From positions 53,319 to 117,318 of IMG/VR virus record IMGVR_UViG_3300033463_000040: a stretch of 64,000 bases of DNA; one strand, written 5' to 3'. Origin of the DNA: a virus. Taxonomy: Duplodnaviria > Heunggongvirae > Uroviricota > Caudoviricetes. The translations under genes were made by a program, and so were the position numbers. Of the stretch, positions 474 to 57,519 are shown one piece after another. The notes below the pieces were generated by a model, which had not been told where the DNA came from, searched no databases, and saw only the letters and a list, made by a program, of their open reading frames with translations. How positions within the stretch are numbered: position 1 is the stretch's first letter; each line of letters starts with the position of its first letter.

Positions 474-1499
474 TTATTCTACCTCTAAAATACAATTTAT
501 ATTAAATTTTGTTTCTTGTATATGCTCATACCAAGCTAAATAACCCATAGGATTACATATAACTTGAATATGACCTAATTTGTTAAAAAATCTATTGTGT
601 ACATGACCACAGTGATAATATTTAATATTCTTAAATTGTTTAAGCCAATTATCATGATTAGACATAAAGGCTGCATTTAATGGATCATCTTTATATTTTT
701 GACTTTCACATTTAGATGTAAAAGGATGATGTGTCATAAGAATAATTGTTGCATTAGGATTCTTGGCAATAATTTCTTTATAACATCTTTTAATTGCTTT
801 TAATGATTCTTTATGCATTTCATGTGTATAACTAGGATACATAGGTGTTATTTTACCATCTTCATCACGCCAATAACCATACCTATAATCATTCATACAA
901 TTTAATGCATTTTTCATTCTACGACCACGATATGAATCTTTATTGCCCATATCTAATTCATCATATTCTTTTGCAGGATCATCAGGTAAACTTGGACCAC
1001 AAAAATGTACTTCTTGTATACCTTTATCAAATTCAGTACCCTTACCAAACACTTTACCTGTGTCTATAAACTTATTTTTTTCCTGATAAGCTTTTTCTGT
1101 ATTTATTTCTTTAATATATTGAGCTTTAGTTTGATGTCCATATAAAAAATCAGTCCAACCAATACATCCAATAACTGCTATATCATCATTAAGCCAAATA
1201 TAGTCATTTTCAAGAAATTTCCATTTACCATTAAATTCTTTTTTATAATCTTCAAGTAATTCTAAAAAAGGTTTAGCATTAGAATGATAAGTAATATGAT
1301 TACCACCAATGAAAATAACTTTTTCATCTTTAAAATATGTATCCAAAAAATTTTTAGCTTCTTCAATATCTGCATCCATATCACCAGCTATTAATGTAAC
1401 ATCTGCAGGTGTTTTAGACTTCATAATTTCTACAAAATCTGTAGCTTCATAAGTCATATTTAAAGCAGCATGAAGATCAGATATAAATCGTATTTTCAT
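474..1499 (-). CDS. calcineurin-like metallophosphoesterase
   Basis: Motifs SDLHA, GDMDAD, GGNHI, THHP, GHVHN in the conserved phosphoesterase order. Confidence 0.6.
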   Translation of the reverse strand: MKIRFISDLHAALNMTYEATDFVEIMKSKTPADVTLIAGDMDADIEEAKNFLDTYFKDEKVIFIGGNHITYHSNAKPFLELLEDYKKEFNGKWKFLENDYIWLNDDIAVIGCIGWTDFLYGHQTKAQYIKEINTEKAYQEKNKFIDTGKVFGKGTEFDKGIQEVHFCGPSLPDDPAKEYDELDMGNKDSYRGRRMKNALNCMNDYRYGYWRDEDGKITPMYPSYTHEMHKESLKAIKRCYKEIIAKNPNATIILMTHHPFTSKCESQKYKDDPLNAAFMSNHDNWLKQFKNIKYYHCGHVHNRFFNKLGHIQVICNPMGYLAWYEHIQETKFNINCILEVE

Positions 1500-1720
1500 T
1501 CTAAGCCTTGTGTTTGTACTAATTTATATAAACAAACTGCTATACAGCAAGAATATATAAATGCCATAAATGTAATACCTGTAACAGTAAGTAAAATACA
1601 GAATAATACTGTCATAATACCCCAAAATTGCCAATCTTTCATAAATACCTCCATATATCTATATTAATTATACAATATAGAATTATAAAAATAAAGCATT
1701 AAATTTAAAAAATTTCCATT

Positions 1721-1745
1721 AAAAAAGCACTCTAAAAAGAGTGCT
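1721..1745 (-). terminator. rho-independent terminator (8-bp stem agcactct/agagtgct, then a T-run on the minus strand)
   Basis: Hairpin plus T-tract read directly in the sequence, downstream of CDS 1770-2048. Confidence 0.6.
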
Positions 1746-1769
1746 TTGATTTATCCAAAAATAGATGAA

Positions 1770-2048
1770 TTATTCTTCATCTTTCTTTTCTTCGTCTTCT
1801 TTTTTAGGCATTTCTTCTTCGCGTGTTTCTTCTTCTTTTGGTGCATCTACTTCTTCATAATCTTCAATACTTACACCATCACGAATAATCACACAATCGG
1901 TCATTTCATCACCTTTTTTAAAGGTTTTACCTTCATCTGCAGTATAAAAAGTGATTTCTTCTTGAACTTCTACTTCAGCAGGAACTGTATCTGTCCAAAT
2001 ACCAAAAATACCATTTAAAGTACCTTTATATGATTTACGTTCTTTCAT
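1770..2048 (-). CDS. hypothetical protein with acidic Glu/Lys-rich C-terminus
   Basis: ORF with a highly charged C-terminal tail. Confidence 0.5.
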   Translation of the reverse strand: MKERKSYKGTLNGIFGIWTDTVPAEVEVQEEITFYTADEGKTFKKGDEMTDCVIIRDGVSIEDYEEVDAPKEEETREEEMPKKEDEEKKDEE

Positions 2049-2125
2049 TTGTTTTTACTCCTTGTATATATACTTTATTAAGAACTGTTATTTTTTATAA
2101 TTTAGTAATTTATTTTTCCAATTTA

Positions 2126-3544
2126 TTAAGCTATCGAATCAATTGTTGTAATAGCCGTTGTACATGTAGAATCACTATATATCGTGGCACCAACAATAGG
2201 ATCTGCTGTACTAGAGGTATAATACGGTGTCCAATCTATCGTTGTTCCAACATCTTGAACTCGCCAAGCCAATGCTGTTGCTGTATCATATTTTGGATTT
2301 CTTTCATAATTTGTTTCATTTACACCCGTTAATATTAAAACTGATGGTAAATCAAATAAAACAGTTGTATTAGTACCACCAAAACCATCTGTTACGCTAG
2401 CCCAAGAACCAAAATCCGCTTGTTTATTTAATGGGAAATGTACAGTACAATTAGTTACTCCTGATAATAACTTATTAAAACGGCCACTATCACCAATGGT
2501 TAAAGCAGGAAATGCTAACTGTGTAAGACTTGTATTTGTAAAGCCATTTTCCAAAGAATAGCTACCGCCCACTTTTTTTAAACTAGAAAAATCTACTTGG
2601 CTCAAAGAAGTACAACCATAACATACTCTATCTAATGCATCTGTACCATCTATAGATACTAATTTTGATAAATCAAGGCTTGTTAAATTTGTACAATTTT
2701 CAAAACATCCTACATTTGCACTATTATATCCACCCATTACTCTATTACCAGAAACTACAGTTAAATTAGACAAATCAACCGATTGAATAGGTGTAGCAGC
2801 AAAACCACACTGTAAACTATCTTCCCCATAAAGCTCCCGTAAAGAATGCATATCTACTGTAGTTAATGCATCACAACCAAAAAATGCTCTATATAAACCC
2901 TGTTTACCTGATATTTTTGTTAAGTTAGGAAAAGATATCGTAGAAAGTTTTTTACAATTAGTAAAGCATTGATACATTCCACAACTAGAAATAACATTTG
3001 TTAAAGATGAAAAATCCACCTCTGTTAAATTTATACAATTATAAAAGCACTGATCTAAAGCATTATTTCCTGTTATTTCTGTTAGATTTGGCCATTTTAC
3101 TTTAGTAATACTACTATTATTAAAACCATTATGTAATGAATCAGAATATGTAAGAGAAGTTAAACTCGGCCAATTTATTTCAGTTATACTATTATTATCT
3201 TTATACGTAGTCTCTAAAATTTTTGTATAAATATCTTTTACACCATTCATATTTACTATTTGACTATTATTTCTTCGTAATACTCCAGAAATATCTACTT
3301 GTAGTTCAAAATAATATTCGGGAGCAACTTCAGCTGTACCAGTAATTCCTAATATATTAACACCTTCTTTAATATTTTCGGGTTGTATATTTGAATCAAT
3401 ATTAGCAGTTACTGCATTTACTTTTACCGGACCATAACCATCAATGCCGGTTTCTACATTTATTGTTTGTATAGAAGTAGTAGGAGTTACTGTTAATTCT
3501 TCTATTTTAGGTGTTAATTTAATCATACTTGGACTTATGCTCAT
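2126..3544 (-). CDS. BspA-type leucine-rich-repeat tail fibre / receptor-binding protein
   Basis: Repeated ~22-aa units (F..C..L..I.FP.L..I....F); N-terminus MSISPSMIKLTPKIEEL shared with 3570-5135; C-terminal TTVLFDL motif shared with paralogues. Confidence 0.6.
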   Translation of the reverse strand: MSISPSMIKLTPKIEELTVTPTTSIQTINVETGIDGYGPVKVNAVTANIDSNIQPENIKEGVNILGITGTAEVAPEYYFELQVDISGVLRRNNSQIVNMNGVKDIYTKILETTYKDNNSITEINWPSLTSLTYSDSLHNGFNNSSITKVKWPNLTEITGNNALDQCFYNCINLTEVDFSSLTNVISSCGMYQCFTNCKKLSTISFPNLTKISGKQGLYRAFFGCDALTTVDMHSLRELYGEDSLQCGFAATPIQSVDLSNLTVVSGNRVMGGYNSANVGCFENCTNLTSLDLSKLVSIDGTDALDRVCYGCTSLSQVDFSSLKKVGGSYSLENGFTNTSLTQLAFPALTIGDSGRFNKLLSGVTNCTVHFPLNKQADFGSWASVTDGFGGTNTTVLFDLPSVLILTGVNETNYERNPKYDTATALAWRVQDVGTTIDWTPYYTSSTADPIVGATIYSDSTCTTAITTIDSIA

Positions 3545-3569
3545 TCTTTACTCCTCTAAAAGTTTTTAA

Positions 3570-5135
3570 TTATAAATCAAATAAAACTGTAGTACCACTT
3601 CCATAAAAACCACTTACTACATCTGACCAATATCCTATAGTACTTTGTAAAGCTGCTGGGAAATGAACTGTTACATTGGAACATCCGTTTAACATTTGAT
3701 TAAATGTATCAGAATATCCTACAGAAGTTAAAGCTGGAAATGACAATGTTCTTAGGCTAGAACATGCTTGACACATTATACAACATGCTCTAGATCCTTG
3801 AATGGATTGTAATTTTGGAAATTCTAAGCTAGGTAAACTCGTGCATCTATAAAATGCATTTTCCATTGCATAACTTCCACTAATCGTAGTTACATTACTT
3901 AAATCTACAGAAGTTAAGCCAGTACAACTATTTAAAAGACCAAATCTAGCATTTATAGCTGTTACTCCGCTTAAATTTAATGAAGCTAAATTCGTACAAC
4001 TTGCAAAACCATATGAAAATTTATTATCTATATTAGTTAAACCAGATAAATCTACAGAAGTAATACCAGTACACCCATAAAACATTGAGCTTCCTACATA
4101 ATTACCTGTTACATTAGTTAAATTGCTCAAATCTAATGGTCCAGTTAAGCCAGTACATTGATAAAACATACTACTTGCTGCAGAATTACCAGAAATTGTA
4201 GTTAATCCACTTAAATCAAGAGAAGTTAAATTAGTACAACCAGAAAACATACTAGAACCAGCAGATTGCCCAGATAGGGTAGTTAAACTGCTTAGATCCG
4301 CAGTTGTAAGTGCTGTACAATTCTGAAACATTCCATATGCTGCATTATCACCAGATAAAGTAGTTAAAGAATCTAAATTGATACTTGTTAAGCGTTTACA
4401 ACAATTAAACATCTTTTTACAAGCATTGTTTCCAGAAATCTCAGTTAAATTGCGTAAATCTATACCAGTAATATAACTCTCTGCTTCATATCCACCTTCC
4501 CATTCATCTCCTATTTGTGCAGAAAACATATTCTCACAAGCAGATTGTCCAGAAATTAAAGTTAAGCCACTTAAATCAATATTTCCAGAAATACTTGAAT
4601 TTGCAGTATATGCATTATAAAGTACAAAATTACCTATGTTTGTAATTCCTGTCAAATCAATAAAAGTAGTAGGAAGTTGAAGTGTAGTATTAGTTTTTGT
4701 ATATTGTATACTTAAACTAGTTGATCCACCTCCTTCATGCGTACCTGTAACACCTAATATAGTTACATCTTTTTTAATGTTTCCAGGTATAATATTACTA
4801 TCTATACTACTTGTAACTGCATTAACTGTAACCTCAGTAATACCATTTTTACCACTAGTTGGAGTTATAGTTTGTTGACTTGTAGTAGGAGTAACTGTTC
4901 TTGTTTCACCTTTTAATTCTACAGCTGATCCGTTAACCCCAAGTATACTAATTCCTTCTTTAATGTTTTCTGATTGTATGTTATTATCTATTTCAGAAGT
5001 AACTGCAGAAACTTTAACTGGACCATAACCATCAATACCTGTTTCTACTCCGATGGTTTGCATAGAAGTAGTAGGAATAATATTTAATTCTTCGATTTTT
5101 GGAGTTAATTTAATCATAGAAGGGCTTATACTCAT
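3570..5135 (-). CDS. BspA-type LRR tail fibre / receptor-binding protein
   Basis: Same N-terminal domain as 2126-3544; many CT.LT(S/T) LRR units; ends GSGTTVLFDL. Confidence 0.6.
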   Translation of the reverse strand: MSISPSMIKLTPKIEELNIIPTTSMQTIGVETGIDGYGPVKVSAVTSEIDNNIQSENIKEGISILGVNGSAVELKGETRTVTPTTSQQTITPTSGKNGITEVTVNAVTSSIDSNIIPGNIKKDVTILGVTGTHEGGGSTSLSIQYTKTNTTLQLPTTFIDLTGITNIGNFVLYNAYTANSSISGNIDLSGLTLISGQSACENMFSAQIGDEWEGGYEAESYITGIDLRNLTEISGNNACKKMFNCCKRLTSINLDSLTTLSGDNAAYGMFQNCTALTTADLSSLTTLSGQSAGSSMFSGCTNLTSLDLSGLTTISGNSAASSMFYQCTGLTGPLDLSNLTNVTGNYVGSSMFYGCTGITSVDLSGLTNIDNKFSYGFASCTNLASLNLSGVTAINARFGLLNSCTGLTSVDLSNVTTISGSYAMENAFYRCTSLPSLEFPKLQSIQGSRACCIMCQACSSLRTLSFPALTSVGYSDTFNQMLNGCSNVTVHFPAALQSTIGYWSDVVSGFYGSGTTVLFDL

Positions 5136-5164
5136 TTAGTTTTCCTTTATTCTATCATATAAAT

Positions 5165-6979
5165 TTATGCAATAGAATCTATTGTTCCAATTACTGTTGT
5201 GCAAGCAGAATCACTATATACATTGTCTCCAACCGATGGTTGAGTTGTTCCACTAGTGAATGCCCACGTTGGACTAGATTGTAAATACCAACCCATATTT
5301 GAACCTGTATCATGTGTAGCAGCTCTAAATAATGTAACAGCTGTGCTTTGACCTGTTGGCATGTATTTGATTACTGGAACTGCTGGTAAATCGAATAGTA
5401 CTACAGTATTTGTTCCACTAAATGTCCAACCACTTATTTGTGTTTCAAGGTTACTTGGGAAGTGGATTGTGCAACCTGTTACAGAACTTACCAAATAAGT
5501 AAACGGATTTGAAGCTGGTAATCCTTCTGGATGTAATGCTGGAAATGAAATAGTTGTTAAATTTGGTGAACTAGAAAAACAGAATGAAAAGCATGAACTT
5601 CCTGATGCAATACATAAATTTGTAAACTCAATACTTGTTGCACCACATCTGCTAAATGCACTTGAAAAAGCATAAGACCCAGTTACAGCTAATAATTTTC
5701 CAATACCATAATTTGTTAAGCCAGTGCAATTCTGGAATGTATAATAAAACATGTTATTCTGTGTAACAATCTCTAAATTACTCAATCCCGTGTCTGTCAA
5801 GCTTGTGCAACCATCAAATGTATATTCAAAAGGTCGCAAACTACTCTGGCTTGGATTGAAAGTAAATGTAACTTGTGAAAAATCTATACCAGTAGAAGTC
5901 AAACTCGTACAACCTTGGAAAGTATAATAAAGAGCTTCCAGATAATGAAATTTTTTACAATTTCCCAATTCGGTAGAAGTCAAGCTTGTGCAATCCTTAA
6001 ATGCATAATCTAATCCATGTATAGCCGTTTGTTCTACCAAATTTCCAAGACCTGTTCTTGTTAAAGATGTGCAACCTTCAAAAGCATGAGCTAATCCATA
6101 AGTACCATTATAAGATGTTCCTCCGCTTAGTTTCTTTAAATTATCTAGCCCAGTGCTTGTTAAAGATGTGCAATCTCTAAACGCACTTACAAGCATAGAT
6201 GCATCAGAATTATTACTTGTTCCAAGATATATTTCTGTATCGGGAGCAAAATCTATACCTGTAGAAGTCAAGCTTGTACATCCCATGAACGTAGAGCTTA
6301 GTCTTTTTAAGAATGAATAAGTAGAAACACTACGATTTAATCCGGTGCTTGTTAAAGATGTGCAACTTTTGAACATACTTGAAAAACTAGAAGGTAAGTT
6401 GATAATTCCAGCCCAGTTTATACCCGTAGAAGTTAAACTTGTGCAACCTTCAAACCAACTACTTGGGTATATAGAAGAATAACTACTACCCGGTATAAGT
6501 ACAAAATCTGTTAAATTTCCCAATTCTGTATCAGTCAAACTTGTGCACCCCTTAAATAAATTACTTAGAAGAGAAGAACTACCAGTTACTGTAGTTAAGC
6601 TTCCAAGACCTGTTCTTGTTAAAGATGTGCAATCTTGAAAACCATTAGATAATAAAGAAGAACCAATAGTTATAGTTTCTACATTATCTAACCCAGTAGA
6701 TGTTAAATTTGTGCACCCAGTAAATGCACAATATAATATTGAGTCATTTGTTACATTTATATCTGTCAAATTTTGTGCGTTTACAAATGCTGTTCCAGAA
6801 AAATCTGTGTCATTGTAATGAATTCGATAGCCAAAATATGGAACATCAATATTAGTAGCTCCACCAATATCAATTCCGGTAGAACCAAGTTTAAGTGCAC
6901 CAGTCTGAGAGTCTCTACTATATGGAATGTTTGGTCCTGTAGAACTGCTTCCACCACTAACTGTCTGATTTATAATCAC
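5165..6979 (-). CDS. BspA-type LRR tail fibre / receptor-binding protein
   Basis: More than 15 GCTSLTSTG(L/I) repeats; N-terminus MIINQTVSGGSS shared with 6991-7632. Confidence 0.6.
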   Translation of the reverse strand: MIINQTVSGGSSSTGPNIPYSRDSQTGALKLGSTGIDIGGATNIDVPYFGYRIHYNDTDFSGTAFVNAQNLTDINVTNDSILYCAFTGCTNLTSTGLDNVETITIGSSLLSNGFQDCTSLTRTGLGSLTTVTGSSSLLSNLFKGCTSLTDTELGNLTDFVLIPGSSYSSIYPSSWFEGCTSLTSTGINWAGIINLPSSFSSMFKSCTSLTSTGLNRSVSTYSFLKRLSSTFMGCTSLTSTGIDFAPDTEIYLGTSNNSDASMLVSAFRDCTSLTSTGLDNLKKLSGGTSYNGTYGLAHAFEGCTSLTRTGLGNLVEQTAIHGLDYAFKDCTSLTSTELGNCKKFHYLEALYYTFQGCTSLTSTGIDFSQVTFTFNPSQSSLRPFEYTFDGCTSLTDTGLSNLEIVTQNNMFYYTFQNCTGLTNYGIGKLLAVTGSYAFSSAFSRCGATSIEFTNLCIASGSSCFSFCFSSSPNLTTISFPALHPEGLPASNPFTYLVSSVTGCTIHFPSNLETQISGWTFSGTNTVVLFDLPAVPVIKYMPTGQSTAVTLFRAATHDTGSNMGWYLQSSPTWAFTSGTTQPSVGDNVYSDSACTTVIGTIDSIA

Positions 6980-24539: not shown

Positions 24540-24605
24540 ATATAAATTTTTTGGTGGCCCTGACCGGAATCGAACCGGTACGACATTTAACTGTCAACAG
24601 ATTTT

Positions 24606-25309
24606 CTTACTACTATAGCTTTCACTACCAATTTCTTGTTTGTAGTCTGGACTTTGTCTTCACCATATATTTCTACTTAGGTGGCTGCCGTTAAGTCTCT
24701 ACACGTTCCTATTTCTAGGCTTCGCTCGGCGTTAGGATTATAAAACCTTTCACCGAATTTGACAGCATTCAATCGAGAAGTTTCCTACCTTGTTGCTCAT
24801 TAGTCTTACCTCTTCTAAACCTATAAGATTTAGTTAAGGAATGGCAATTTGGACACAATATAATTAAATTAGATAATAAATGATTTTCAGGATTTCCATC
24901 GATATGATGTAATTCGCATGGAGTATATTTGCTATTTTTTAATTTTTCACACCACCCACATTTCTCACACTTATCTTCTTTATATCCTTCATCTATTAAT
25001 CTTGTTTTTAATTTATATGTTTGATACTGAGGATACTTTCCTGCTAAAATTTCTTCTATAGATATTTTAGCAGATCTTTTTTTCTCAGTACCTTTTCCGC
25101 CTTGATTAGGTTTATAAATACCCAATCTTTTAGCATGCCTAATAAATGTTGTATATGCCATACCACATCTTTTAGCAGCTAAAGCCATTGTTTGAGACTT
25201 AATGATAATATCAATCATTTCTTGATCTGTAATTCTATTTTTCATAGGATTAACTCCTTATGATATAGAACTACTTTTTCAATAAATTATGATACACTCA
25301 TTTTCGTCT
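24606..25309 (-). mobile_element. group I intron in the tRNA-Leu anticodon loop, carrying an HNH homing endonuclease ORF
   Basis: Exon ends in U before the 5' splice site; the intron ends in G; P7-like CAGACTAC...GTAGT elements near the 3' end; HNH ORF inside. Confidence 0.6.
24769..25245 (-). CDS. HNH homing endonuclease (intron-encoded) with N-terminal HTH
   Basis: CELHHIDGNPENHLLSNLIILCPNCHS HNH motif; lies wholly within the intron. Confidence 0.65.
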   Translation of the reverse strand: MKNRITDQEMIDIIIKSQTMALAAKRCGMAYTTFIRHAKRLGIYKPNQGGKGTEKKRSAKISIEEILAGKYPQYQTYKLKTRLIDEGYKEDKCEKCGWCEKLKNSKYTPCELHHIDGNPENHLLSNLIILCPNCHSLTKSYRFRRGKTNEQQGRKLLD

Positions 25310-25360
25310 AAGTCTGCAGCGTCTACCAATTCCGCCACAGGGCCAAAATTAATAAAGTAA

Positions 25361-25450
25361 TGGCGGAGTGGGAGGGATTTGAACCCCCGGAAACATTACT
25401 GCTTCGGCTGATTAGTAATCAGCTGTATTAAACCGCTCTACCACCACTCC
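25361..25450 (-). tRNA. class II tRNA, Ser-like, with an atypical anticodon read as ACU
   Basis: Acceptor GGAGTGG/CCACTCC; long variable arm; anticodon arm GCTGA-TTACTAA-TCAGC gives ACT at 34-36. Confidence 0.55.
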
Positions 25451-25551: not shown

Positions 25552-25625
25552 TGGTGCACCAACCCGGTTATGCTCCGAGGTCTTAACCTTGGCAAGGTTA
25601 CATTCTACTATTAAACTACTGGTGC
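25552..25625 (-). tRNA. tRNA-Gly (GCC) with a non-canonical T-loop (AGCATAA)
   Basis: Acceptor GCACCAG/TTGGTGC; anticodon arm TAACC-TTGCCAA-GGTTA. Confidence 0.55.
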
Positions 25626-26639: not shown

Positions 26640-27831
26640 ATATAAAGGTGTTTTGATTCTCTACGATGGCTCAATAACACCAAAAGCCTCGGCAAATCCT
26701 CGACCATTGGTCAAGGCCCAGAAATATGTTCAGTCGAGCATCACTAGCTGAACTCCGTGATGTTCGGATTGAGGTGTCCAATCAGTAGTTGAAACTTTAC
26801 CCCAAAAACCAAAAATGCATTTCTACATTCTGGCAATCCATACTAGCTAATGCTAATAGGAATTTAAGCGGAGAATGATAGTAAGACCCGGAATTTAGAT
26901 CACTGACTTGTAAGAGTACAAGCTAACCGGCCTATCAAACCCGAAATTAATATACATAAAAGTATATCAACAGTAAACATTTATACTTCCAATTCCACCT
27001 TACTAGAGCTCTTTCAGGTTTCCTATTCTTTCCCTTGGACTTGTTACAGCAAGCTGTATTGTCGAACACCAATACATTCGAGACTATTTCACTCGAAATA
27101 AGTATAAACATTAAAAATGCAGAATTTAGTTGGCCTAACCTAACGAAGTCACACCTGCATTAAACTCCGACTACTATCGACTAGTGACGATCGTTCTGAC
27201 CAGGAACGTTAGTCAAGGGATTTAGCCTACTACTGCAGTCTCAGCTAAATTGAGGGTGGGATTATTGGTTAGGCACTTCCCCTAACACTTCAGCCCAGTG
27301 TGCTGTGTGCTATACTTCACACTACTTACCCAAACTTTATGGCGACTCGTATGGGTACCGCCCCCATCTGATTTCCTGAGTGACAGTCAGGTGAACACAC
27401 TATGCATTCCCACGAGCCAAATATTTTTCTATACTTTTTGAGCTAAGCCCGCAAATAAATTTGGTAGATTCTGTTGCCAAGCTCTACCCAGCTCCGATTG
27501 ATAACTTTATTTAAATCAAGCAGCTATTGCACTTAATTTATAGTTATCGTTCGCTGGTTCATTTATCATGCCAGTCAATTAAATAATCTTTTGTAATTAT
27601 TTAGTAAACTGTATCGGTGATATTGCAATGTCCCTTATGCTTCTTTTGGTCTAGTACCAAATGTTCTATTCGTAATAAACTAAATATCACCAAACTTTAT
27701 GGTGGAGATATCGGTATTGAAACCGAGTCCAGTAAAAATATACTGTCGAATTTAACTCATCCCCTTGTATCTTTACCTAGAGCTGATAACATTACTAAGA
27801 TGTCATAGCAGTTGTTCTAGGATTTCATTTG
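26640..27831. ncRNA. 1.2-kb ORF-free, GC-enriched, hairpin-dense segment between tRNA-Asn and tRNA-Tyr: candidate large structured RNA
   Basis: No ORF above the noise. GC visibly above the ~28% background. Many GC-containing local stems (catcac..gtgatg, gttagg..cctaac, agtgtg..cacact, cctga..tcagg). CCAAACTTTATGG motif twice (27331, 27679). A tRNA-like 3' end at 27690-27725. Confidence 0.3.
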
Positions 27832-28098
27832 TGGTGGGAGAGGTTGGAGTCGAACCAACTCAGTCATAAGACAACAGATTTCATTGCTACATTGTTTTCA
27901 CATTGTAGTCTGGACTTTCTCTTCATCTCAATAAGATGTCTGGTGTAAAGTCTCTACACTCGGATTTCTCCTAGCTCGGGATTAGCATATCATTTAACTT
28001 AGCTTTCCCCGACTTAGCCAAATTTTCACTTATATATTACTATATAAGGCTGCAATTTTTTACAGTCTGCCCCGGCTCTCCGACTCCGGCGCTCGCCC
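27832..28098 (-). tRNA. tRNA-Tyr (GUA) interrupted by a ~180-nt intron; exons 28098..28062 and 27881..27832
   Basis: 5' exon GGGCGAG-CG-CCGGAGTCGGAGAGCCGG-G-GCAGA-CTGT joins to 3' exon AAA-TCTGT-TGTCTTATGACTGA-GTTGGTTCGACTCCAAC-CTCTCCC-A-CCA. The spliced anticodon arm GCAGACTGTAAATCTGT matches the E. coli tRNA-Tyr pattern. The intron core is homologous to the tRNA-Leu intron. Confidence 0.55.
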
Positions 28099-28106
28099 AT
28101 TAGTTA

Positions 28107-28607
28107 CTAATTAAAAAAGTTATTCCATATTTCTTTTCTTTTATCTAGATTATTTCTATACAAACCACTGCTAGAAGGTAAAACATGTTTTTGTAATTTA
28201 TCTAAATCAAATGATAAATTTTGTTGTTTTACGATTTTAGAAAATTCTTTAAAAGCAGTTTGTCCATTAAAATATAGATCTTTATTAATTAGTTTTTCTA
28301 AATTATTATATTGTTGTAAAGATATATTTTTATCTAGACTTGTTTCTTTATTATTTTTATCTAATCTAGAACAAGCAGATAATACATCCCATACACCAAT
28401 ATCTTTTTCTGCTAACCTTTTTATTTTTTCTATATAAGAAATTTTGTTATCATCTTTATCTTTAGTAGGAATATTTAATAATGTCCAAAAACTATTATTT
28501 GGATGACTATAATACTCACTACGTAAATTAGATACCAAACCTGGATAACTACCCAAAATAATTTTATTCGCAGATGGATTAACCATGTTCATTTTATACC
28601 TCCTCAA
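28107..28607 (-). CDS. uracil/thymine-DNA glycosylase, family 2 (MUG/TDG-like)
   Basis: ILGSYPGLVS...YYSHPNNSFWTLL matches the MUG signatures G.NPGL.S and HP.N.FW. Confidence 0.5.
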   Translation of the reverse strand: MRRYKMNMVNPSANKIILGSYPGLVSNLRSEYYSHPNNSFWTLLNIPTKDKDDNKISYIEKIKRLAEKDIGVWDVLSACSRLDKNNKETSLDKNISLQQYNNLEKLINKDLYFNGQTAFKEFSKIVKQQNLSFDLDKLQKHVLPSSSGLYRNNLDKRKEIWNNFFN

Positions 28608-28701
28608 TATTTTATTTAAAATTGAGAATTTAACCGATTCACAAAAACTCCTTATTAAAACAGAGGAAAGCGTATAAACCCTTTCTTATTTTTTTACAAT
28701 A

Positions 28702-36792: not shown

Positions 36793-38994
36793 TTAATCCT
36801 TATTATAATAACTGTTTTTAATATCAATAATGGATAATGTATCTAAATCAATACCACCATTTTTAATACCTGTCATAAAACTAAACAAATCATTCATCAA
36901 ATTTGTTTGTTCAGACTTTACATTTTTAGCGGCAAAATATTTATCATTATCACCTTTATTAATATATTCTTTCATTCTACGCATGTCTTTCCAGAATTTA
37001 TAGAAAGGTGTTTTATATTTAATCATAAAATTATTCTGATCTACAAATACAAAACCTTCTATTTCTTCATGAAAATCTTTATCAAATGCTTCAATAAAAG
37101 ATTTTAATTCAGCAAAGGTATTAAATACTTTACACATTTCTTTTGGTTTACATCCTATTTGTTTAGCTAATTCCCATACATCATCATAAGATTTAAATGT
37201 ATCTGTAAAATCATTCTGTACTATATCTAATAATACAACTTTTTCATTGACATATTCAATAATATGCGGATCATTATGTGGATCTACACATTCAAATATA
37301 GCGGAACAATTATTAGCTTTTAAATATTCTTTTAATTTATCAATATTTGTATGTGTTTTTAATATACGCTCAAAGTTTTCTTTATATTCGCCTTGATTTG
37401 TAGATTTAGATGCAATAAATAATTGATCATTATATACAGATACAATACCTAAAAAGCCATTTTCTTTCAAATAAGCAGTTACTGGAAATACTAATGTCTT
37501 TTCTAAATTTCTCCATTGTGTAGATGGATGCTGTTCTGCTTCAAAAAATTTAGGATAAGATCTAGCAACTACTTGATTTGTCTTAGTATCAACAAATAAG
37601 CCTCTCGCTGTAGTAGTTAATTTATTCCATTTTTGGCTATAAAAAGCTTCTCTACTAAAGTTATAAGAAACTATACCATCACCCAAATCTTTTTTATGTA
37701 TTAAACTACTACTATCCAATTGTTGAATAATTGGATTATCATGTCTACTAGAAGGAATTTGTATATCTTTGTTATAAATTGTATTTGGTATTTCTATTGG
37801 TAATATATTCATTTTGTCTGTATAAGATAATTCAACTATTCTTAAATTACCACCAAATTCAACTTTACCTTCTAAGTTAATACTATAGCCGTCTGCACTT
37901 ATAATTGGATTATTAGTTACATTACGATGACCATGTACATTATAGCATTTGTAGTTTAATACTTGCATAGTCATTTTTTCATTAATACTACCAAAAGCTT
38001 TTTCTACTTCATCTAAATCATCATAATCACCTACTCCTTTAATACATTGTATTGCAGAAGTACGATAATCTAAAGGAAAGCTTAATCCACCATGAGTAAT
38101 AGAAAATCTATGATAAATACCCTGACAGTAAAAACTAACATTTACTGCTACTTTTAATCTTCTAGTAAACTTACTTAATTGATCTTTTAATTCACCAAAC
38201 TGTACTAAAGAATCTTTGAAATCTGGTGTCATTTTAGCAGCTTCACCATCTCTTACATAATTCTTAGCCCATATTTCATGATTACCTTGTAAAAATACAA
38301 AGTTTTCTTTTTCACAGTGGTCTAAACAAAACTGTAATACTTCTTTAGCTTGAATACCACGATCAAAATAATCACCAATAAAGATGTATAATTTTTGATC
38401 AGATTCTGGAGATGCTTCAAAGTATTTTCTTATTGGATCATAACAATTATGTATATCACCAAATATTACTACTTCTTTCCATTTATTACCATCTATTTTA
38501 TATACAAAATTATCTAAATTAGGAAATTCATTATAATCATAAATTTCATATTTATTTTGTAATGGTACTTTTATTTGATTATACATACGATCTAATACTT
38601 CATTTGGTACTTGTTTATAACTTTCCCGCATTAAATTTCTTTCTTTACAAGTATCTAAATCAACAGAAGAAAAATCTACAATAATCATACGATAATTATA
38701 TTCTTTACACAATTTTTTATAATCTTTTAAATAAGATTCTTTGGTATGTGTAGCATCTAATATAGTAAAATCACCATTCTTCATACGATCTTCTAATCTT
38801 TCTTTAAAGAAAGCCCAAACATGTTTATCATGTTTATTAGAAACAATATATTTACCTTTTATAGTTTGTTCTGGAGAAGAGTATAATAAACGAATAGCAT
38901 CGGTACTTAAAACGTATGCTTCTAAATCTCTTTCTTTAATCCAAGTAGATTTACCAGAACCTGGAATACCTCTTAAAACTAACAAGATCTTCAT
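36793..38994 (-). CDS. trifunctional RNA repair enzyme, Pnkp-like (kinase, metallophosphatase, ligase-like)
   Basis: N-terminal P-loop GIPGSGKST; central calcineurin-like motifs GDIHNCYD, GDYFDRG, GNHE; C-terminal third with ligase-like KENG. Confidence 0.55.
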   Translation of the reverse strand: MKILLVLRGIPGSGKSTWIKERDLEAYVLSTDAIRLLYSSPEQTIKGKYIVSNKHDKHVWAFFKERLEDRMKNGDFTILDATHTKESYLKDYKKLCKEYNYRMIIVDFSSVDLDTCKERNLMRESYKQVPNEVLDRMYNQIKVPLQNKYEIYDYNEFPNLDNFVYKIDGNKWKEVVIFGDIHNCYDPIRKYFEASPESDQKLYIFIGDYFDRGIQAKEVLQFCLDHCEKENFVFLQGNHEIWAKNYVRDGEAAKMTPDFKDSLVQFGELKDQLSKFTRRLKVAVNVSFYCQGIYHRFSITHGGLSFPLDYRTSAIQCIKGVGDYDDLDEVEKAFGSINEKMTMQVLNYKCYNVHGHRNVTNNPIISADGYSINLEGKVEFGGNLRIVELSYTDKMNILPIEIPNTIYNKDIQIPSSRHDNPIIQQLDSSSLIHKKDLGDGIVSYNFSREAFYSQKWNKLTTTARGLFVDTKTNQVVARSYPKFFEAEQHPSTQWRNLEKTLVFPVTAYLKENGFLGIVSVYNDQLFIASKSTNQGEYKENFERILKTHTNIDKLKEYLKANNCSAIFECVDPHNDPHIIEYVNEKVVLLDIVQNDFTDTFKSYDDVWELAKQIGCKPKEMCKVFNTFAELKSFIEAFDKDFHEEIEGFVFVDQNNFMIKYKTPFYKFWKDMRRMKEYINKGDNDKYFAAKNVKSEQTNLMNDLFSFMTGIKNGGIDLDTLSIIDIKNSYYNKD

Positions 38995-55977: not shown

Positions 55978-57519
55978 ATGTCAATTTTAAAAACAATCGA
56001 AAAACAAGGTTTGACAGAAGCTAAACGCAATGTCAAAATGAACCGCGGTATCGCACACGCAGCTCAATTCTTAGCAGAATCTAACTTAGGTGTTCGTTGC
56101 CCAAATTTGGTTAAAGGTTTAGAATCTGATTCCAAAGAAGCTAAATATGCAGCAGCTACATTAGTCCAAATCATGGAAAATACAGCTGACTACGTTATGA
56201 AAACAGACGGCAAAGATATCTTACATGAAGATGCTATCAACGCTACAGCTAACACAATGTTAACACCAGGCGTCTCAACTTTGACTCCACAAGTATTGGA
56301 TATCGTTAATATATTTTATCCAATGATGGTTGCAAATTATATTGCAGACATTCAAGCTATGGATCGTCAATCTGGCCAAATCTTTACAATTAAGACACGT
56401 TACAGCCAGACAGCAGCAGACGTAGCAGAAGGTGATATTGTATTCGAAAAAGCAACTGACGGTACATATTCTACTGAAGGTGTTATTTCTTATACAGCAG
56501 CTACAACAGCAGCAGGTGCAGCTACATTGAATCCAACAGCAGCATTAGAAGCAAACACAACAGTAAAAGTACGTGCAGGTTCATTTATCGTTACAGTTGA
56601 TGGTAAAGAAGTTGCTCGTGATTACGGTTTAGACACATCTTTGGATGGTGTTGGTGGTACATATGTAGTTATCGGTAAGGGCGTATCTGGTACAGTTGAT
56701 GCACAAACAGGTGTTGCAACTTTGAAATTGGATACAGCTGTTATTGCTGATGGTACAGTATTGAATGCTACAGCTTCTTATGATACAGAACACGATGAAG
56801 ATTTGATTCGTAAGATTCAATTCGATATTCCTAACCAACCAATCTTGGCTAAGGAACACCCATTGATGAGTTCATATTCTGTTGCTGCAGGTTTAGTCAT
56901 GAACGCTCACTTAGCAATTGATACAGATGAATTGATCACAAATCAATTAGCTGGTACAATTCGTTGGGAACGTGACTTGGCATTAGTTAAAGCAGTATCT
57001 GATGCTGCAGTTGCTAATCCATCTTTGACTTTTGACTGCTCAGCTAACGGTACTAACTTGACATTGGCACAACGTTATAGTTCATATACAACAACTATTT
57101 CTTCTGCTCGTGGTATTATCCAAGAAACAGCAGGTCGTGGAACTGTTGACTTTATCATCTGTTCTGCTACTCAAGGTTTGCCAATTATCGAACAAATCGA
57201 AGGCTTTAAAGCTGCTCCAGAAGCTAAGAAACCAATTGGTCCATATTTAGCAGGTACATTGCGTGATGGTACAATCAACGTAATTGCAGTTCCTTATACA
57301 AAAACATTGGCAGCTGATCAAGTTGTCTTTGGTTTCAAGGGCTTCCAATTAGGTGATTCTGCAATCATCTTAGCTGAATGGGTTGCTTTGTATTTGACAC
57401 CAACATTCCAAGCTCCAAACTTACGTAACCACAAAGGTTGCTTGAGTTTCTACGACTTATTTGTAAATAAGCCAGAATACTTGGTTAAAGGTGCTATTTC
57501 TAACTTCAACGTTGCTTAA
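55978..57519 (+). CDS. putative major capsid protein (513 aa)
   Basis: Plus-strand gene; codon usage strongly skewed to GGT/GCT/ACA/GTT-type codons, unlike its neighbours; Ala/Thr/Gly/Val-rich; followed by a strong terminator. Confidence 0.45.
   Translation: MSILKTIEKQGLTEAKRNVKMNRGIAHAAQFLAESNLGVRCPNLVKGLESDSKEAKYAAATLVQIMENTADYVMKTDGKDILHEDAINATANTMLTPGVSTLTPQVLDIVNIFYPMMVANYIADIQAMDRQSGQIFTIKTRYSQTAADVAEGDIVFEKATDGTYSTEGVISYTAATTAAGAATLNPTAALEANTTVKVRAGSFIVTVDGKEVARDYGLDTSLDGVGGTYVVIGKGVSGTVDAQTGVATLKLDTAVIADGTVLNATASYDTEHDEDLIRKIQFDIPNQPILAKEHPLMSSYSVAAGLVMNAHLAIDTDELITNQLAGTIRWERDLALVKAVSDAAVANPSLTFDCSANGTNLTLAQRYSSYTTTISSARGIIQETAGRGTVDFIICSATQGLPIIEQIEGFKAAPEAKKPIGPYLAGTLRDGTINVIAVPYTKTLAADQVVFGFKGFQLGDSAIILAEWVALYLTPTFQAPNLRNHKGCLSFYDLFVNKPEYLVKGAISNFNVA

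What the first reader, a model, noticed from the sequence alone, without database searches (positions are those of the whole stretch)
27832..28098. Second intron-split tRNA: tRNA-Tyr(GUA) with a short ORF-less intron related to the tRNA-Leu intron
Exons at 28062-28098 (GGGCGAG...CCGGAGTCGGAGAGCCGG...GCAGACTGT) and 27832-27881 (AAATCTGT, class II variable arm, T-arm, CTCTCCC-A-CCA) rebuild an anticodon arm GCAGA-CUGUAAA-UCUGU identical in pattern to E. coli tRNA-Tyr. The ~180-nt insert shares blocks with the tRNA-Leu intron (GTAGTCTGGACTTT(G/C)TCTTCA(C/T)C; GT(T/A)AAGTCTCTACAC). It has no endonuclease gene and is shorter than typical group I introns. The acceptor stem carries one C-U mismatch (4-69). 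This is either a minimal HEG-less derivative, a trans-dependent intron, or a decaying pseudo-tRNA.
Basis: partly seen in the sequence, partly recalled or inferred. Interest (0 to 1): 0.7.

Follow-up and report, generated by a model that had tools for sequence, protein, structure and literature searches.

The report
Tiny self-splicing intron in phage tRNA-Tyr
A phage tRNA-Tyr gene is split in its anticodon loop by a complete but unusually small (180-nt) group I self-splicing intron with no protein gene; this is a real, conserved member of a known kind of element, not a decaying gene.

Summary
On the minus strand, exons 28098-28062 and 27881-27832 flank a 180-nt insert (28061-27882). Joined, the exons give a class II tRNA-Tyr(GUA). 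The insert scores 64.8 bits on Rfam's group I intron model (cut-off 50). It has U·G at the 5' splice site, a terminal G, and helices P1-P9 including the P7 guanosine-binding pair. A hand-drawn fold is supported by covariation in 19 homologous tRNA-Tyr introns (86% of cells paired against 36-41% in shifted controls) and in the 7 closest mini-introns (95%). Orthologs in sister phage contigs show compensatory changes in every tRNA stem, so the gene is maintained. The blocks shared with the window's tRNA-Leu intron are the family's invariant catalytic core (57% identity overall). The nearest relatives are 181-189-nt tRNA-Tyr and about 185-nt tRNA-Asn introns at the same 35/36 position (82-91%). 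Related tRNA-Tyr introns also occur in chromosomal genes of rumen Clostridia, Gammaproteobacteria and Patescibacteria. Position 35/36 and a tRNA-Tyr host were published in 2026. What is new: a phage host, a length below the published bacterial range (184-894 nt), and visible stepwise miniaturisation. Splicing was not tested.

The parts
28062..28098 (-). tRNA-Tyr(GUA) 5' exon (positions 1-35; ends C32 U33 G34 U35)
   Evidence: Sequence read. The joined exons are called tRNA-Tyr(gta) by ARAGORN.
27882..28061 (-). 180-nt group I intron without an ORF, inserted between U35 and A36
   Evidence: Rfam RF00028 64.8 bits, gathering score 50. Covariation. No ORF longer than 39 codons.
27832..27881 (-). 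tRNA-Tyr 3' exon (A36 onwards: long variable arm, T arm, acceptor strand, A73, encoded CCA)
   Evidence: Identical exons in L259.
28050..28065 (-). P1: exon C32-U35 plus intron A1-A2 paired with the internal guide UUGCAG (intron 7-12); U35.G9 wobble marks the 5' splice site
   Evidence: Rfam alignment. The U.G pair is present in 19 of 19 Tyr introns and helix 2 is 100% paired. The guide switches to GAGU in Leu introns, whose exon ends ACUU.
28029..28048 (-). P2 hairpin, 8 bp with a GUAA tetraloop (intron 14-33)
   Evidence: 8 of 8 pairs change on both sides and 99.3% of cells are paired.
27939..28022 (-). P3 (intron 40-44 with 119-123, UUUGG/CCAGA), enclosing the P4-P6 domain and the 5' strand of P7
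   Evidence: Three P3 pairs change on both sides between the Tyr and Asn mini-introns (UCUGG/CCAGA versus GCCAG/CUGGC). The tentative sixth pair 39/124 is never formed and was dropped.
27976..28012 (-). P4 (intron 50-55 with 81-86), A-rich J4/5 and J5/4, and P5 (intron 59-77) with GCUAAG...UAUGC, which reads as an 11-nt GAAA-tetraloop receptor
   Evidence: P4 is 100% paired with 3 covarying pairs. The receptor motif is conserved in both clades of alignment A4. Its identification as a receptor rests on general knowledge of the CCUAAG...UAUGG motif.
27958..27975 (-). P6 hairpin with a GAAA loop (intron 87-104)
   Evidence: Base pairs are 100% paired with covariation (helix 8) and 92.9% paired in the close clade.
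27912..27954 (-). P7 pseudoknot: intron G108, G110-U113 with A146-C150; A109 bulged; G110-C149 is the inferred guanosine-binding pair; encloses P3', P8 and J8/7
   Evidence: All 5 pairs are invariant and paired in 19 of 19 sequences. Assignment as the G-binding pair is by analogy with Azoarcus G129-C176 (PMC13168695).
27924..27938 (-). P8, reduced to a 4-5 bp hairpin with a 5-nt loop (intron 124-138); relatives have a longer P8 with a receptor motif and a GAAA cap
   Evidence: 100% paired with one compensatory pair in the close clade. Truncation relative to the Leu and Asn introns is seen.
27887..27908 (-). P9, a single hairpin with a GAAA loop (intron 154-175); relatives carry a second 3' hairpin
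   Evidence: 100% paired with 2 compensatory pairs. L040 shows U-A to C-G and G-C to A-U.
27882..27882 (-). Terminal G of the intron (omega-G), the 3' splice site
   Evidence: Invariant in alignment A4.
24552..25344 (-). Companion gene: tRNA-Leu(UAA) split at 34/35 by a 704-nt group I intron (25309-24606) carrying an HNH endonuclease ORF (25245-24769)
   Evidence: The spliced sequence is called tRNA-Leu(taa). Rfam RF00028 65.1 bits. PHROG HNH endonuclease E 4e-20.

Best explanation
This is a working phage tRNA-Tyr(GUA) gene interrupted between anticodon nucleotides U35 and A36 by a 180-nt group I intron with no endonuclease gene and an Azoarcus-like compact architecture. Inferred mechanism, following the established group I pathway: (1) In the precursor, anticodon-loop nucleotides C32-U35 pair with the intron's internal guide (UUGCAG) to form P1, with a U35.G wobble marking the 5' splice site, while the exons stay paired through the anticodon stem GCAGA/UCUGU. 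(2) A free guanosine bound at the G110-C149 pair of P7 attacks after U35. (3) The terminal G180 then takes that site, and the 3'-OH of U35 attacks after G180, joining U35 to A36 and restoring the loop CUGUAAA. (4) End processing then gives a class II tRNA-Tyr whose CCA is encoded. The intron is a miniaturised member of a family spread through phage tRNA arrays: it has lost the extended P8 and the second 3' hairpin of its relatives. The anatomy, its conservation and the covariation are shown here. Catalysis, aminoacylation and every step of the mechanism are inferred.
For: Rfam group I model 64.8 bits, above the cut-off of 50. The spliced product is called tRNA-Tyr(gta). On a structure-blind MAFFT alignment of 19 tRNA-Tyr introns, the hand-drawn fold, including the P7 pseudoknot, pairs 86.2% of cells against 35.5-41.1% when partners are slid. 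Thirty pairs change on both sides, and the covariation score is 0.395 against 0.181 in shuffles (0 of 500 reach the observed value). P1 with its U.G pair and P7 are invariant, and P2 covaries at 8 of 8 pairs. In the 7 closest mini-introns 94.7% of cells pair, against 31.7-39.1%, with 14 double-change pairs, and the short P8 and single P9 are 100% paired. The P1 guide tracks the host exon: GCAG with CUGU in Tyr and Asn, GAGU with ACUU in Leu. Orthologs: L259 has identical exons and a 181-nt intron, L278 has 184 nt and L040 has 182 nt. They show compensatory changes in acceptor 5:68 and 6:67, the D stem, the T stem and the variable arm. Intron-less homologs of the same phage tRNA-Tyr family reach 87% identity. 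Chromosomal tRNA-Tyr genes of rumen Clostridia MAGs carry 198-201-nt relatives. Introns at 35/36 in other tRNAs self-splice accurately in vitro (PMC13011429).
Against: No splicing, expression or charging data exist for this gene. The tRNA has unusual features: a C4.U69 mismatch and C8 instead of U8. P10 is at most 2 bp. At 180 nt the intron is shorter than any of the 333 bacterial tRNA introns surveyed (184-894 nt, PMC13011429) and shorter than Azoarcus (205 nt), and it has lost P8 and 3' elements that relatives keep, so efficiency without helpers is uncertain. In the broad alignment P3, the distal part of P6, P8 and P9 pair in only 52-70% of cells. I attribute this to mis-register with the distant clade, but that is an interpretation.
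Confidence: 0.88

Rival explanations
1. Decaying pseudo-tRNA: the gene was inactivated by an intron that no longer splices, and both are drifting.
For: C4.U69 mismatch and C8 in the tRNA. The intron is unusually short and lacks peripheral elements. One sister contig has an apparently chimeric Asn-like gene whose exon halves do not pair (L040:410-609), so decay does happen in this family.
Against: Compensatory changes occur in all four tRNA stems among orthologs. Intron helices covary while catalytic positions are invariant. C8 is shared with intron-less homologs from many phages. The 4:69 position stays mismatched while its neighbours covary, which is not what drift would give.
Confidence: 0.03
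2. Trans-dependent intron: the core is intact, but miniaturisation has made splicing depend on a protein cofactor or RNA chaperone from the phage or the host.
For: Loss of the P8 receptor and of the second 3' hairpin. The weak P10. Length below the known range (PMC13011429).
Against: P1-P9, both A-rich junctions, the G-binding pair and a conserved P5 receptor with an L9 GAAA loop are all present. Nothing in the window resembles a known maturase, and the HNH protein of the Leu intron is a DNA endonuclease family. The 205-nt Azoarcus intron self-splices robustly with the same set of helices (PMC13168695).
Confidence: 0.08
3. Adaptive device: the intron is kept because it benefits the phage. It might couple tRNA-Tyr maturation to GTP level or infection stage, or keep the anticodon loop unavailable to host anticodon nucleases until it is spliced.
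For: Several tRNAs per array are split in related phages: Tyr, Leu and others in L035. The window also encodes a Pnkp-RNA ligase fusion of the tRNA-repair type. tRNA-Tyr is a known target of anti-phage systems that phage tRNAs can evade (PMC11555353 abstract).
Against: Intron presence is polymorphic among homologous phage tRNA-Tyr genes, and similar introns sit in ordinary bacterial chromosomal genes. That pattern fits a tolerated selfish element. No direct evidence for any benefit was found.
Confidence: 0.08

Closest known systems
[quoted passage not shown]
   Same: It lies in a tRNA anticodon loop and is compact. It has the same helix set, P1-P9 without P5abc or P2.1. The P7 G-C pair is the guanosine site. 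GNRA loops on P2 and P9 and a CCUAAG...UAUGG-type receptor in P5 match by motif (PMC13168695 for size, elements and G129-C176; the tetraloop-receptor details are from my own knowledge).
   Different: The window intron is 25 nt shorter. Its P8 is a bare 4-5 bp hairpin without a receptor, L2 is GUAA rather than GAAA, and no separate P9.0 or second 3' element is evident. The host tRNA (Tyr versus Ile) and insertion site differ, and it is phage-borne.
tRNA-Leu(UAA) 34/35 group I introns of cyanobacteria, plastids and Bacteroidota (some with HNH genes)
   Same: Same intron family: the window's own Leu intron and dozens in viral contigs align through P3-P9 with invariant core blocks.
   Different: The insertion site is one nucleotide upstream (34/35). 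The guide is GAGU rather than GCAG. These introns are longer (194-218 nt, or about 670-726 nt with a homing endonuclease gene), and they keep the long P8 and two 3' hairpins. Identity to the Tyr intron is only 57%.
Position 35/36 tRNA introns of Patescibacteria (tRNA-Asn, tRNA-Asp, one tRNA-Tyr; Nakagawa et al. 2026, PMC13011429)
   Same: Same insertion site, and in one genome the same host tRNA. Standard tRNA finders miss them in the same way. Self-splicing at this site was shown in vitro for Asn and Asp.
   Different: Those introns were classified almost entirely as subgroup IA, whereas this one is Azoarcus-like (IC-like by architecture, not formally classified). They are bacterial and chromosomal rather than phage-borne, and none is shorter than 184 nt.
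Classical phage group I introns (T4 td, nrdB, sunY; Twort; SPO1; Bastille)
   Same: Group I ribozymes resident in phage genomes.
   Different: Those interrupt protein-coding genes. A 2014 review stated that all phage introns known then were in protein-coding genes, despite the many phage tRNA genes (PMC3984707). This one interrupts a tRNA.

Membership tests
Group I intron (Rfam RF00028) | Covariance-model score at or above the curated gathering score | tested here: met
   64.8 bits against 50, E 3e-16. The ortholog in L259 scores 70.0 bits.
Group I intron (Rfam RF00028) | 5' exon ends in U, which forms a U.G wobble with the internal guide in P1 | tested here: met
   U35.G9; the U.G pair is present in 19 of 19 homologs.
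Group I intron (Rfam RF00028) | Intron ends in G (omega-G) | tested here: met
   G at 27882, invariant in alignments A4 and A5.
Group I intron (Rfam RF00028) | Conserved core P3-P9 with the P3/P7 pseudoknot and a G-C guanosine-binding pair in P7 | tested here: met
   All helices can be drawn. 86% (19 sequences) and 95% (7 sequences) of cells pair, with 30 and 14 double-change pairs. P7 is invariant.
Group I intron (Rfam RF00028) | Guanosine-dependent self-splicing | not testable with these tools
   Needs an in vitro splicing assay or RNA data.
Subgroup IC3 (Azoarcus / tRNA-Leu type) | Subgroup-specific peripheral architecture and core sequence signature | tested here: inconclusive
   The helix set and receptor motifs look Azoarcus-like, and 81% of bacterial tRNA introns are IC (PMC13011429). 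No formal subgroup classifier was available.
Mobile (homing) group I intron | Intron-encoded homing endonuclease | tested here: not met
   No ORF longer than 39 codons overlaps the gene. Relatives of 598-726 nt do carry ORFs.
Bacterial-type tRNA-Tyr | Class II cloverleaf with GUA anticodon after intron removal | tested here: met
   ARAGORN calls tRNA-Tyr(gta), 87 nt, with a long variable arm.
Bacterial-type tRNA-Tyr | Identity elements G1-C72 and A73 (from general knowledge) and actual charging by TyrRS | not testable with these tools
   G1-C72, A73 and the long variable arm are visible in the sequence. Charging needs an assay. C8 and the 4:69 mismatch are atypical.

The most novel reading that the evidence does not exclude
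The 180-185-nt introns are the smallest natural self-splicing group I ribozymes in any tRNA. They form a lineage that moves between tRNA-Tyr(GUA) and tRNA-Asn(GUU) genes of phage tRNA arrays without any endonuclease, by reverse splicing into the shared CUGU loop sequence. Phages retain them because they gate or protect tRNA maturation during infection.
Probability: 0.1. Interest if true: 0.7.

Novelty: new member of a known kind. Interest (0 to 1): 0.4.

Why it matters
There are four practical consequences. First, annotation: ARAGORN and the default Rfam scan both miss this gene, so phage tRNA repertoires (and codon-usage arguments built on them) are undercounted. The same family sits unannotated in a cultured jumbo phage. 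Second, it contradicts the older generalisation that phage introns live only in protein-coding genes: one 14-mer scan of IMG/VR pulled in about 65 intron copies of this family, most of those resolved lying in tRNA genes. Third, at 180 nt with a full, covariation-supported core, it is a candidate for one of the smallest natural group I ribozymes. Its relatives show a natural deletion series (long P8 lost first, then the second 3' hairpin), which is useful for ribozyme minimisation and structural work. Fourth, the close Tyr and Asn paralogs give a testable case of endonuclease-free intron movement between tRNA genes.

Tried and rejected
- The whole-window Rfam gathering scan and a 10-kb E-value scan missed both introns. 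Only stretches of about 1.4 kb or less recovered them. A 3.2-kb two-locus scan also returned nothing.
- The viral-contig pattern AGACTGTN{4,12}TTGCAGC was too loose: 120 loci, none a homolog.
- blastn of 27400-28700 against GenBank phages found no match.
- The promoter and terminator scan around the gene was at background level: 9 sites against 7.1 expected.
- A sixth P3 pair (intron 39/124) was proposed and then dropped, because it is never paired in the close clade.
- My first junction-finding filter rejected L040's tRNA-Tyr; it was resolved by hand.
- Literature searches for a stated 'smallest group I intron' returned only a group II statement. Searches for prior reports of phage tRNA group I introns found none, but the library is incomplete, so this is absence of evidence only.
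- Formal subgroup classification and a comparison with the Azoarcus sequence itself were not done, because I hold that sequence only from memory.

Full report
**1. What is in the sequence**

Read on the minus strand, 28098-27832 is GGGCGAGCGCCGGAGUCGGAGAGCCGGGGCAGACUGU | 180 nt | AAAUCUGUUGUCUUAUGACUGAGUUGGUUCGACUCCAACCUCUCCCACCA. ARAGORN finds 14 tRNAs in the window, all on the minus strand between 21.8 and 26.6 kb, but nothing here. When the 180 nt are removed it calls tRNA-Tyr(gta), 87 nt. The longest ORF overlapping the gene has 39 codons.

**2. The insert is a group I intron**

On a 551-nt stretch the Rfam group I model (RF00028) scores 64.8 bits, above its gathering score of 50, with E 3e-16 over 28072-27889. 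The default whole-window scan and a 10-kb scan missed it. This is loss to the speed filters, not absence: the same happened for the Leu intron, which scores 65.1 bits on a short stretch.

From the Rfam alignment, the minimum-energy fold (z = -3.8 against shuffles) and inspection, the anatomy is as follows (intron numbering; window coordinate = 28062 - n):
- P1: exon C32-U35 plus A1-A2 pair with U7-G12, with U35.G9 at the 5' splice site.
- P2: 14-21 with 26-33, GUAA loop.
- P3: 40-44 with 119-123.
- P4: 50-55 with 81-86, flanked by AA/AA junctions.
- P5: 59-77, reading GCUAAG...UAUGC. By general knowledge of the CCUAAG...UAUGG motif this is an 11-nt GAAA-tetraloop receptor.
- P6: 87-104, GAAA loop.
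- P7: G108 and G110-U113 with A146-C150, with A109 bulged.
- P8: 124-138, a bare hairpin.
- P9: 154-175, GAAA loop.
- Terminal G180.

The exons can remain paired through the anticodon stem GCAGA/UCUGU, which P1 does not use.

**3. Relatives, and a formal test of the fold**

A 14-mer from the core fetched 119 viral contigs. nhmmer showed that over half carry true homologs (65 intron-like clusters in 55 loci, besides the window's two).

A brute-force search for splice junctions that restore a tRNA gave the following hosts:
- tRNA-Leu(UAA) at 34/35: most cases, 194-218 nt, or 666-726 nt with an ORF.
- tRNA-Asn(GUU) at 35/36.
- tRNA-Tyr(GUA) at 35/36.
- A few Ile, Lys and Ala genes.

A pattern spanning the Tyr P1 helix then found tRNA-Tyr introns in metagenome contigs and in GTDB genomes:
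- L259 has exons identical to the window and a 181-nt intron.
- L278 (184 nt), L040 = L268 (182 nt) and L035 = L256 = L062 (189 nt) are phage tRNA arrays.
- Four sheep-gut Clostridia MAGs carry 198-201-nt versions in a chromosomal tRNA-Met/tRNA-Tyr pair beside ordinary cellular genes.
- Gammaproteobacteria and Patescibacteria MAGs carry 185-211-nt versions.
- A Bacilli MAG has a 621-nt version, a length that suggests an ORF (none was looked for).

The window's 180 nt is the shortest I saw.

On a structure-blind MAFFT alignment of 19 distinct Tyr introns (A4), my fold, including the P7 pseudoknot and the exon-exon stem, gave these results:
- 86.2% of cells pair, against 35.5-41.1% when the 3' partners are slid by 1-3 columns.
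- 30 pairs change on both sides.
- The covariation score is 0.395, against 0.181 +/- 0.010 in shuffles (0 of 500 reach the observed value).
- P2 covaries at 8 of 8 pairs.
- P4 is 100% paired with three covarying pairs.
- P1 (U.G in 19 of 19) and P7 are invariant.

P3, the distal part of P6, P8 and P9 were blurred (52-70% paired), because the distant clade is out of register with a structure drawn on the window. I therefore repeated the count on the seven closest mini-introns (A5). There 94.7% of cells pair against 31.7-39.1%, and 14 pairs change on both sides. P3 has three compensatory pairs (UCUGG/CCAGA in Tyr against GCCAG/CUGGC in Asn). The short P8 and the single P9 are 100% paired. A tentative sixth P3 pair was never formed and was dropped.

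The P1 guide also tracks its exon across hosts: GCAG with CUGU in Tyr and Asn, GAGU with ACUU in Leu.

**4. The tRNA is maintained, not decaying**

Among the phage orthologs the acceptor pairs 5:68 (G-C to C-G) and 6:67 (A-U to U-A), the D stem (CCGG/CCGG against ACAG/CUGU), the T stem and the variable arm all change compensatorily. Position 4:69 stays mismatched (C.U in the window, L259 and L278; C.A in L040). The Clostridia versions have U.G there. C8, instead of the usual U8, is shared with intron-less phage tRNA-Tyr homologs of up to 87% identity, which have a fully paired acceptor stem. So C8 is a family trait, the 4:69 mismatch is a conserved peculiarity of this clade, and intron presence is polymorphic among homologous genes.

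**5. Relation to the tRNA-Leu intron**

The Leu gene (25344-24552) is split at 34/35 by a 704-nt intron carrying an HNH endonuclease ORF. It aligns with the Tyr intron through P3-P9. The shared blocks (GUGUAGAGACUU; GAAGA.AAAGUCCAGACUACAA) are largely invariant across the 23 family members aligned; they are the catalytic core. Identities to the window's Tyr intron:

| Intron | Identity |
|---|---|
| L278 Tyr | 91% |
| L040 Tyr | 90.5% |
| L278 Asn (185 nt) | 83% |
| L035 Tyr | 83% |
| L040 Asn-like | 82% |
| Clostridia Tyr (L288) | 69% |
| Window Leu intron | 57% |

The nearest paralogs are therefore the Asn(GUU) mini-introns, which share the CUGU exon end and the GCAG guide. This suggests movement between the two tRNA genes, but that is an inference.

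Miniaturisation is visible in steps. Leu and Asn relatives have a long P8 (CCUAA...GAAA...UAUGG) and two 3' hairpins. L240's Tyr intron has the short P8 but keeps both 3' hairpins. The window clade has lost both.

**6. Genome context**

The window is a phage of about 25-37% G+C. The evidence:
- A major head protein homolog at 55978-57519 (phrog_138, E 3e-24).
- Tail-fibre repeat hits and BspA-type LRR proteins.
- An HNH endonuclease.
- A Pnkp-RNA ligase fusion at 36793-38994 (phrog_8238, E 6e-175).

The sister loci are IMG/VR viral contigs with tRNA arrays.

**7. Comparison with what is known**

Nakagawa et al. 2026 (PMC13011429) surveyed 4,934 complete bacterial genomes and found 333 tRNA group I introns of 184-894 nt (mean 257). 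Of these, 28 sit at position 35/36, one of them in tRNA-Tyr(GUA) of a Patescibacteria genome. They also found HNH-bearing tRNA-Leu(UAA) introns in Bacteroidota, and showed accurate self-splicing at 35/36 for Asn and Asp. The kind of element, the insertion site and the host tRNA are therefore published.

The Azoarcus pre-tRNA-Ile intron (205 nt; P2-P9 and P9.0; G129-C176 as the guanosine pocket; PMC13168695) is the closest structural model.

Hausner et al. 2014 (PMC3984707) wrote that all phage introns seen to date were in protein-coding genes, despite the many phage tRNA genes. I found no later paper describing phage tRNA group I introns, but the library is incomplete.

Database records already contain them:
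- Microcoleus phage My-WqHQDG annotates a 286-nt 'tRNA-Arg'.
- Cultured Agrobacterium jumbo phage Atu_ph07 has an unannotated tRNA-Leu(UAA) split at 34/35 by a 278-nt insert. Rfam scores it at 48.9 bits, E 1e-11, and the spliced sequence is called tRNA-Leu(taa). A 39-codon hypothetical ORF is annotated over it.

**8. Verdict**

This is a real, conserved group I intron without an ORF in a functional-looking phage tRNA-Tyr. It is a new member of a known kind. Three things are modestly new: the phage host, a length just below the published bacterial range, and the visible route of miniaturisation together with the Tyr/Asn paralogy. Self-splicing and charging remain untested. Confidence in the main explanation is 0.88 and interest is 0.4.

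Noticed in passing
window 27460-27764 (minus strand); ortholog L259:3-520 (minus): A tmRNA-like locus of unusual layout lies just downstream of tRNA-Tyr. A complete 65-nt tRNA-like domain (27764-27700) has a G3:U70 pair, a UUCGAC D-analog, a T arm and ACCA; its P2 is closed as a hairpin where normal tmRNA holds about 310 nt. About 145 nt further on is a canonical tag frame, GCG AAC GAU AAC UAU AAA UUA AGU GCA AUA GCU GCU UGA = ANDNYKLSAIAA*. The tRNA-like domain scores 34.5 bits here and 49.5 bits (cut-off 47) in L259, where the closing hairpin covaries (CAGUA/UACUG to CAAUG/CAUUG). The spacer between the two parts is roughly 200 nt longer in L259. ARAGORN calls no tmRNA. The order fits neither the one-piece nor the known permuted two-piece gene, and how the tag part would be tethered to the tRNA-like part is unexplained.
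   Followed up: partly
window 24552-25344 (minus strand): tRNA-Leu(UAA) is split at 34/35 by a 704-nt group I intron (Rfam 65.1 bits) carrying a 158-aa HNH endonuclease ORF (25245-24769). tRNA finders and the default Rfam scan both miss it.
   Followed up: yes
MF403008.1 (Agrobacterium phage Atu_ph07), about 112889-113249; locus L369:656-1016: A cultured jumbo phage carries an unannotated tRNA-Leu(UAA) split at 34/35 by a 278-nt group I-like insert of the same family (Rfam 48.9 bits, E 1e-11; the spliced sequence is called tRNA-Leu). The record annotates a 39-codon 'hypothetical protein' (AUZ94936.1) over it. Matches to the same core also occur in the 735-kb uncultured phages LR756501 and LR756503, Lak-C1, a Kolpuevirus and others.
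   Followed up: partly
L035 (= L256) 1100-5800; L278; L240: Sister phage tRNA arrays hold several intron-split tRNAs each. L035 has Tyr (189 nt), Leu (194 nt) and two or three further copies whose host tRNA is ambiguous (Glu, or Ser/stop-like). L278 has both a Tyr (184 nt) and an Asn (185 nt) mini-intron.
   Followed up: partly
L040:410-609 (minus strand): An Asn-like gene carries a 183-nt mini-intron, but its exon halves do not match: the 5' anticodon-stem strand is AGGGA and the 3' strand is UCAAG. It may be a chimeric or decayed copy, or a product of ectopic intron movement.
   Followed up: no
window 28062-28098 and 27832-27881: The phage tRNA-Tyr has C8 instead of the near-universal U8; this is shared with intron-less homologs in many viral contigs. 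It also has a conserved mismatch at 4:69 (C.U or C.A) that is specific to this clade. The significance for folding, charging or nuclease evasion is unknown.
   Followed up: partly
window 25555-25625 (minus strand): Rfam calls a tRNA here (49.2 bits) that ARAGORN misses. By eye it is tRNA-Gly(GCC) with an atypical T arm (CUCGG-AGCAUAA-CCGGG).
   Followed up: partly
window 25361-25450 (minus strand); also L240:5166-5257: A tRNA-Ser is called with the unusual anticodon ACU (A at position 34), next to tRNA-Ser(UGA). The same call appears in a sister contig.
   Followed up: no
window 36793-38994 (minus strand): A 733-aa fusion of polynucleotide kinase, phosphatase and T4-type RNA ligase 1 (phrog_8238, E 6e-175), that is, tRNA-repair machinery. 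It is 35% identical to proteins of Bacillus SPbeta-like and Staphylococcus phages, which hints at a Bacillota host.
   Followed up: no
window-wide (method): Rfam's group I model loses these compact AT-rich introns to its speed filters once more than about 1.5-3 kb is searched in one call. This held for the window, L368 and L369, so routine annotation will systematically miss them.
   Followed up: yes
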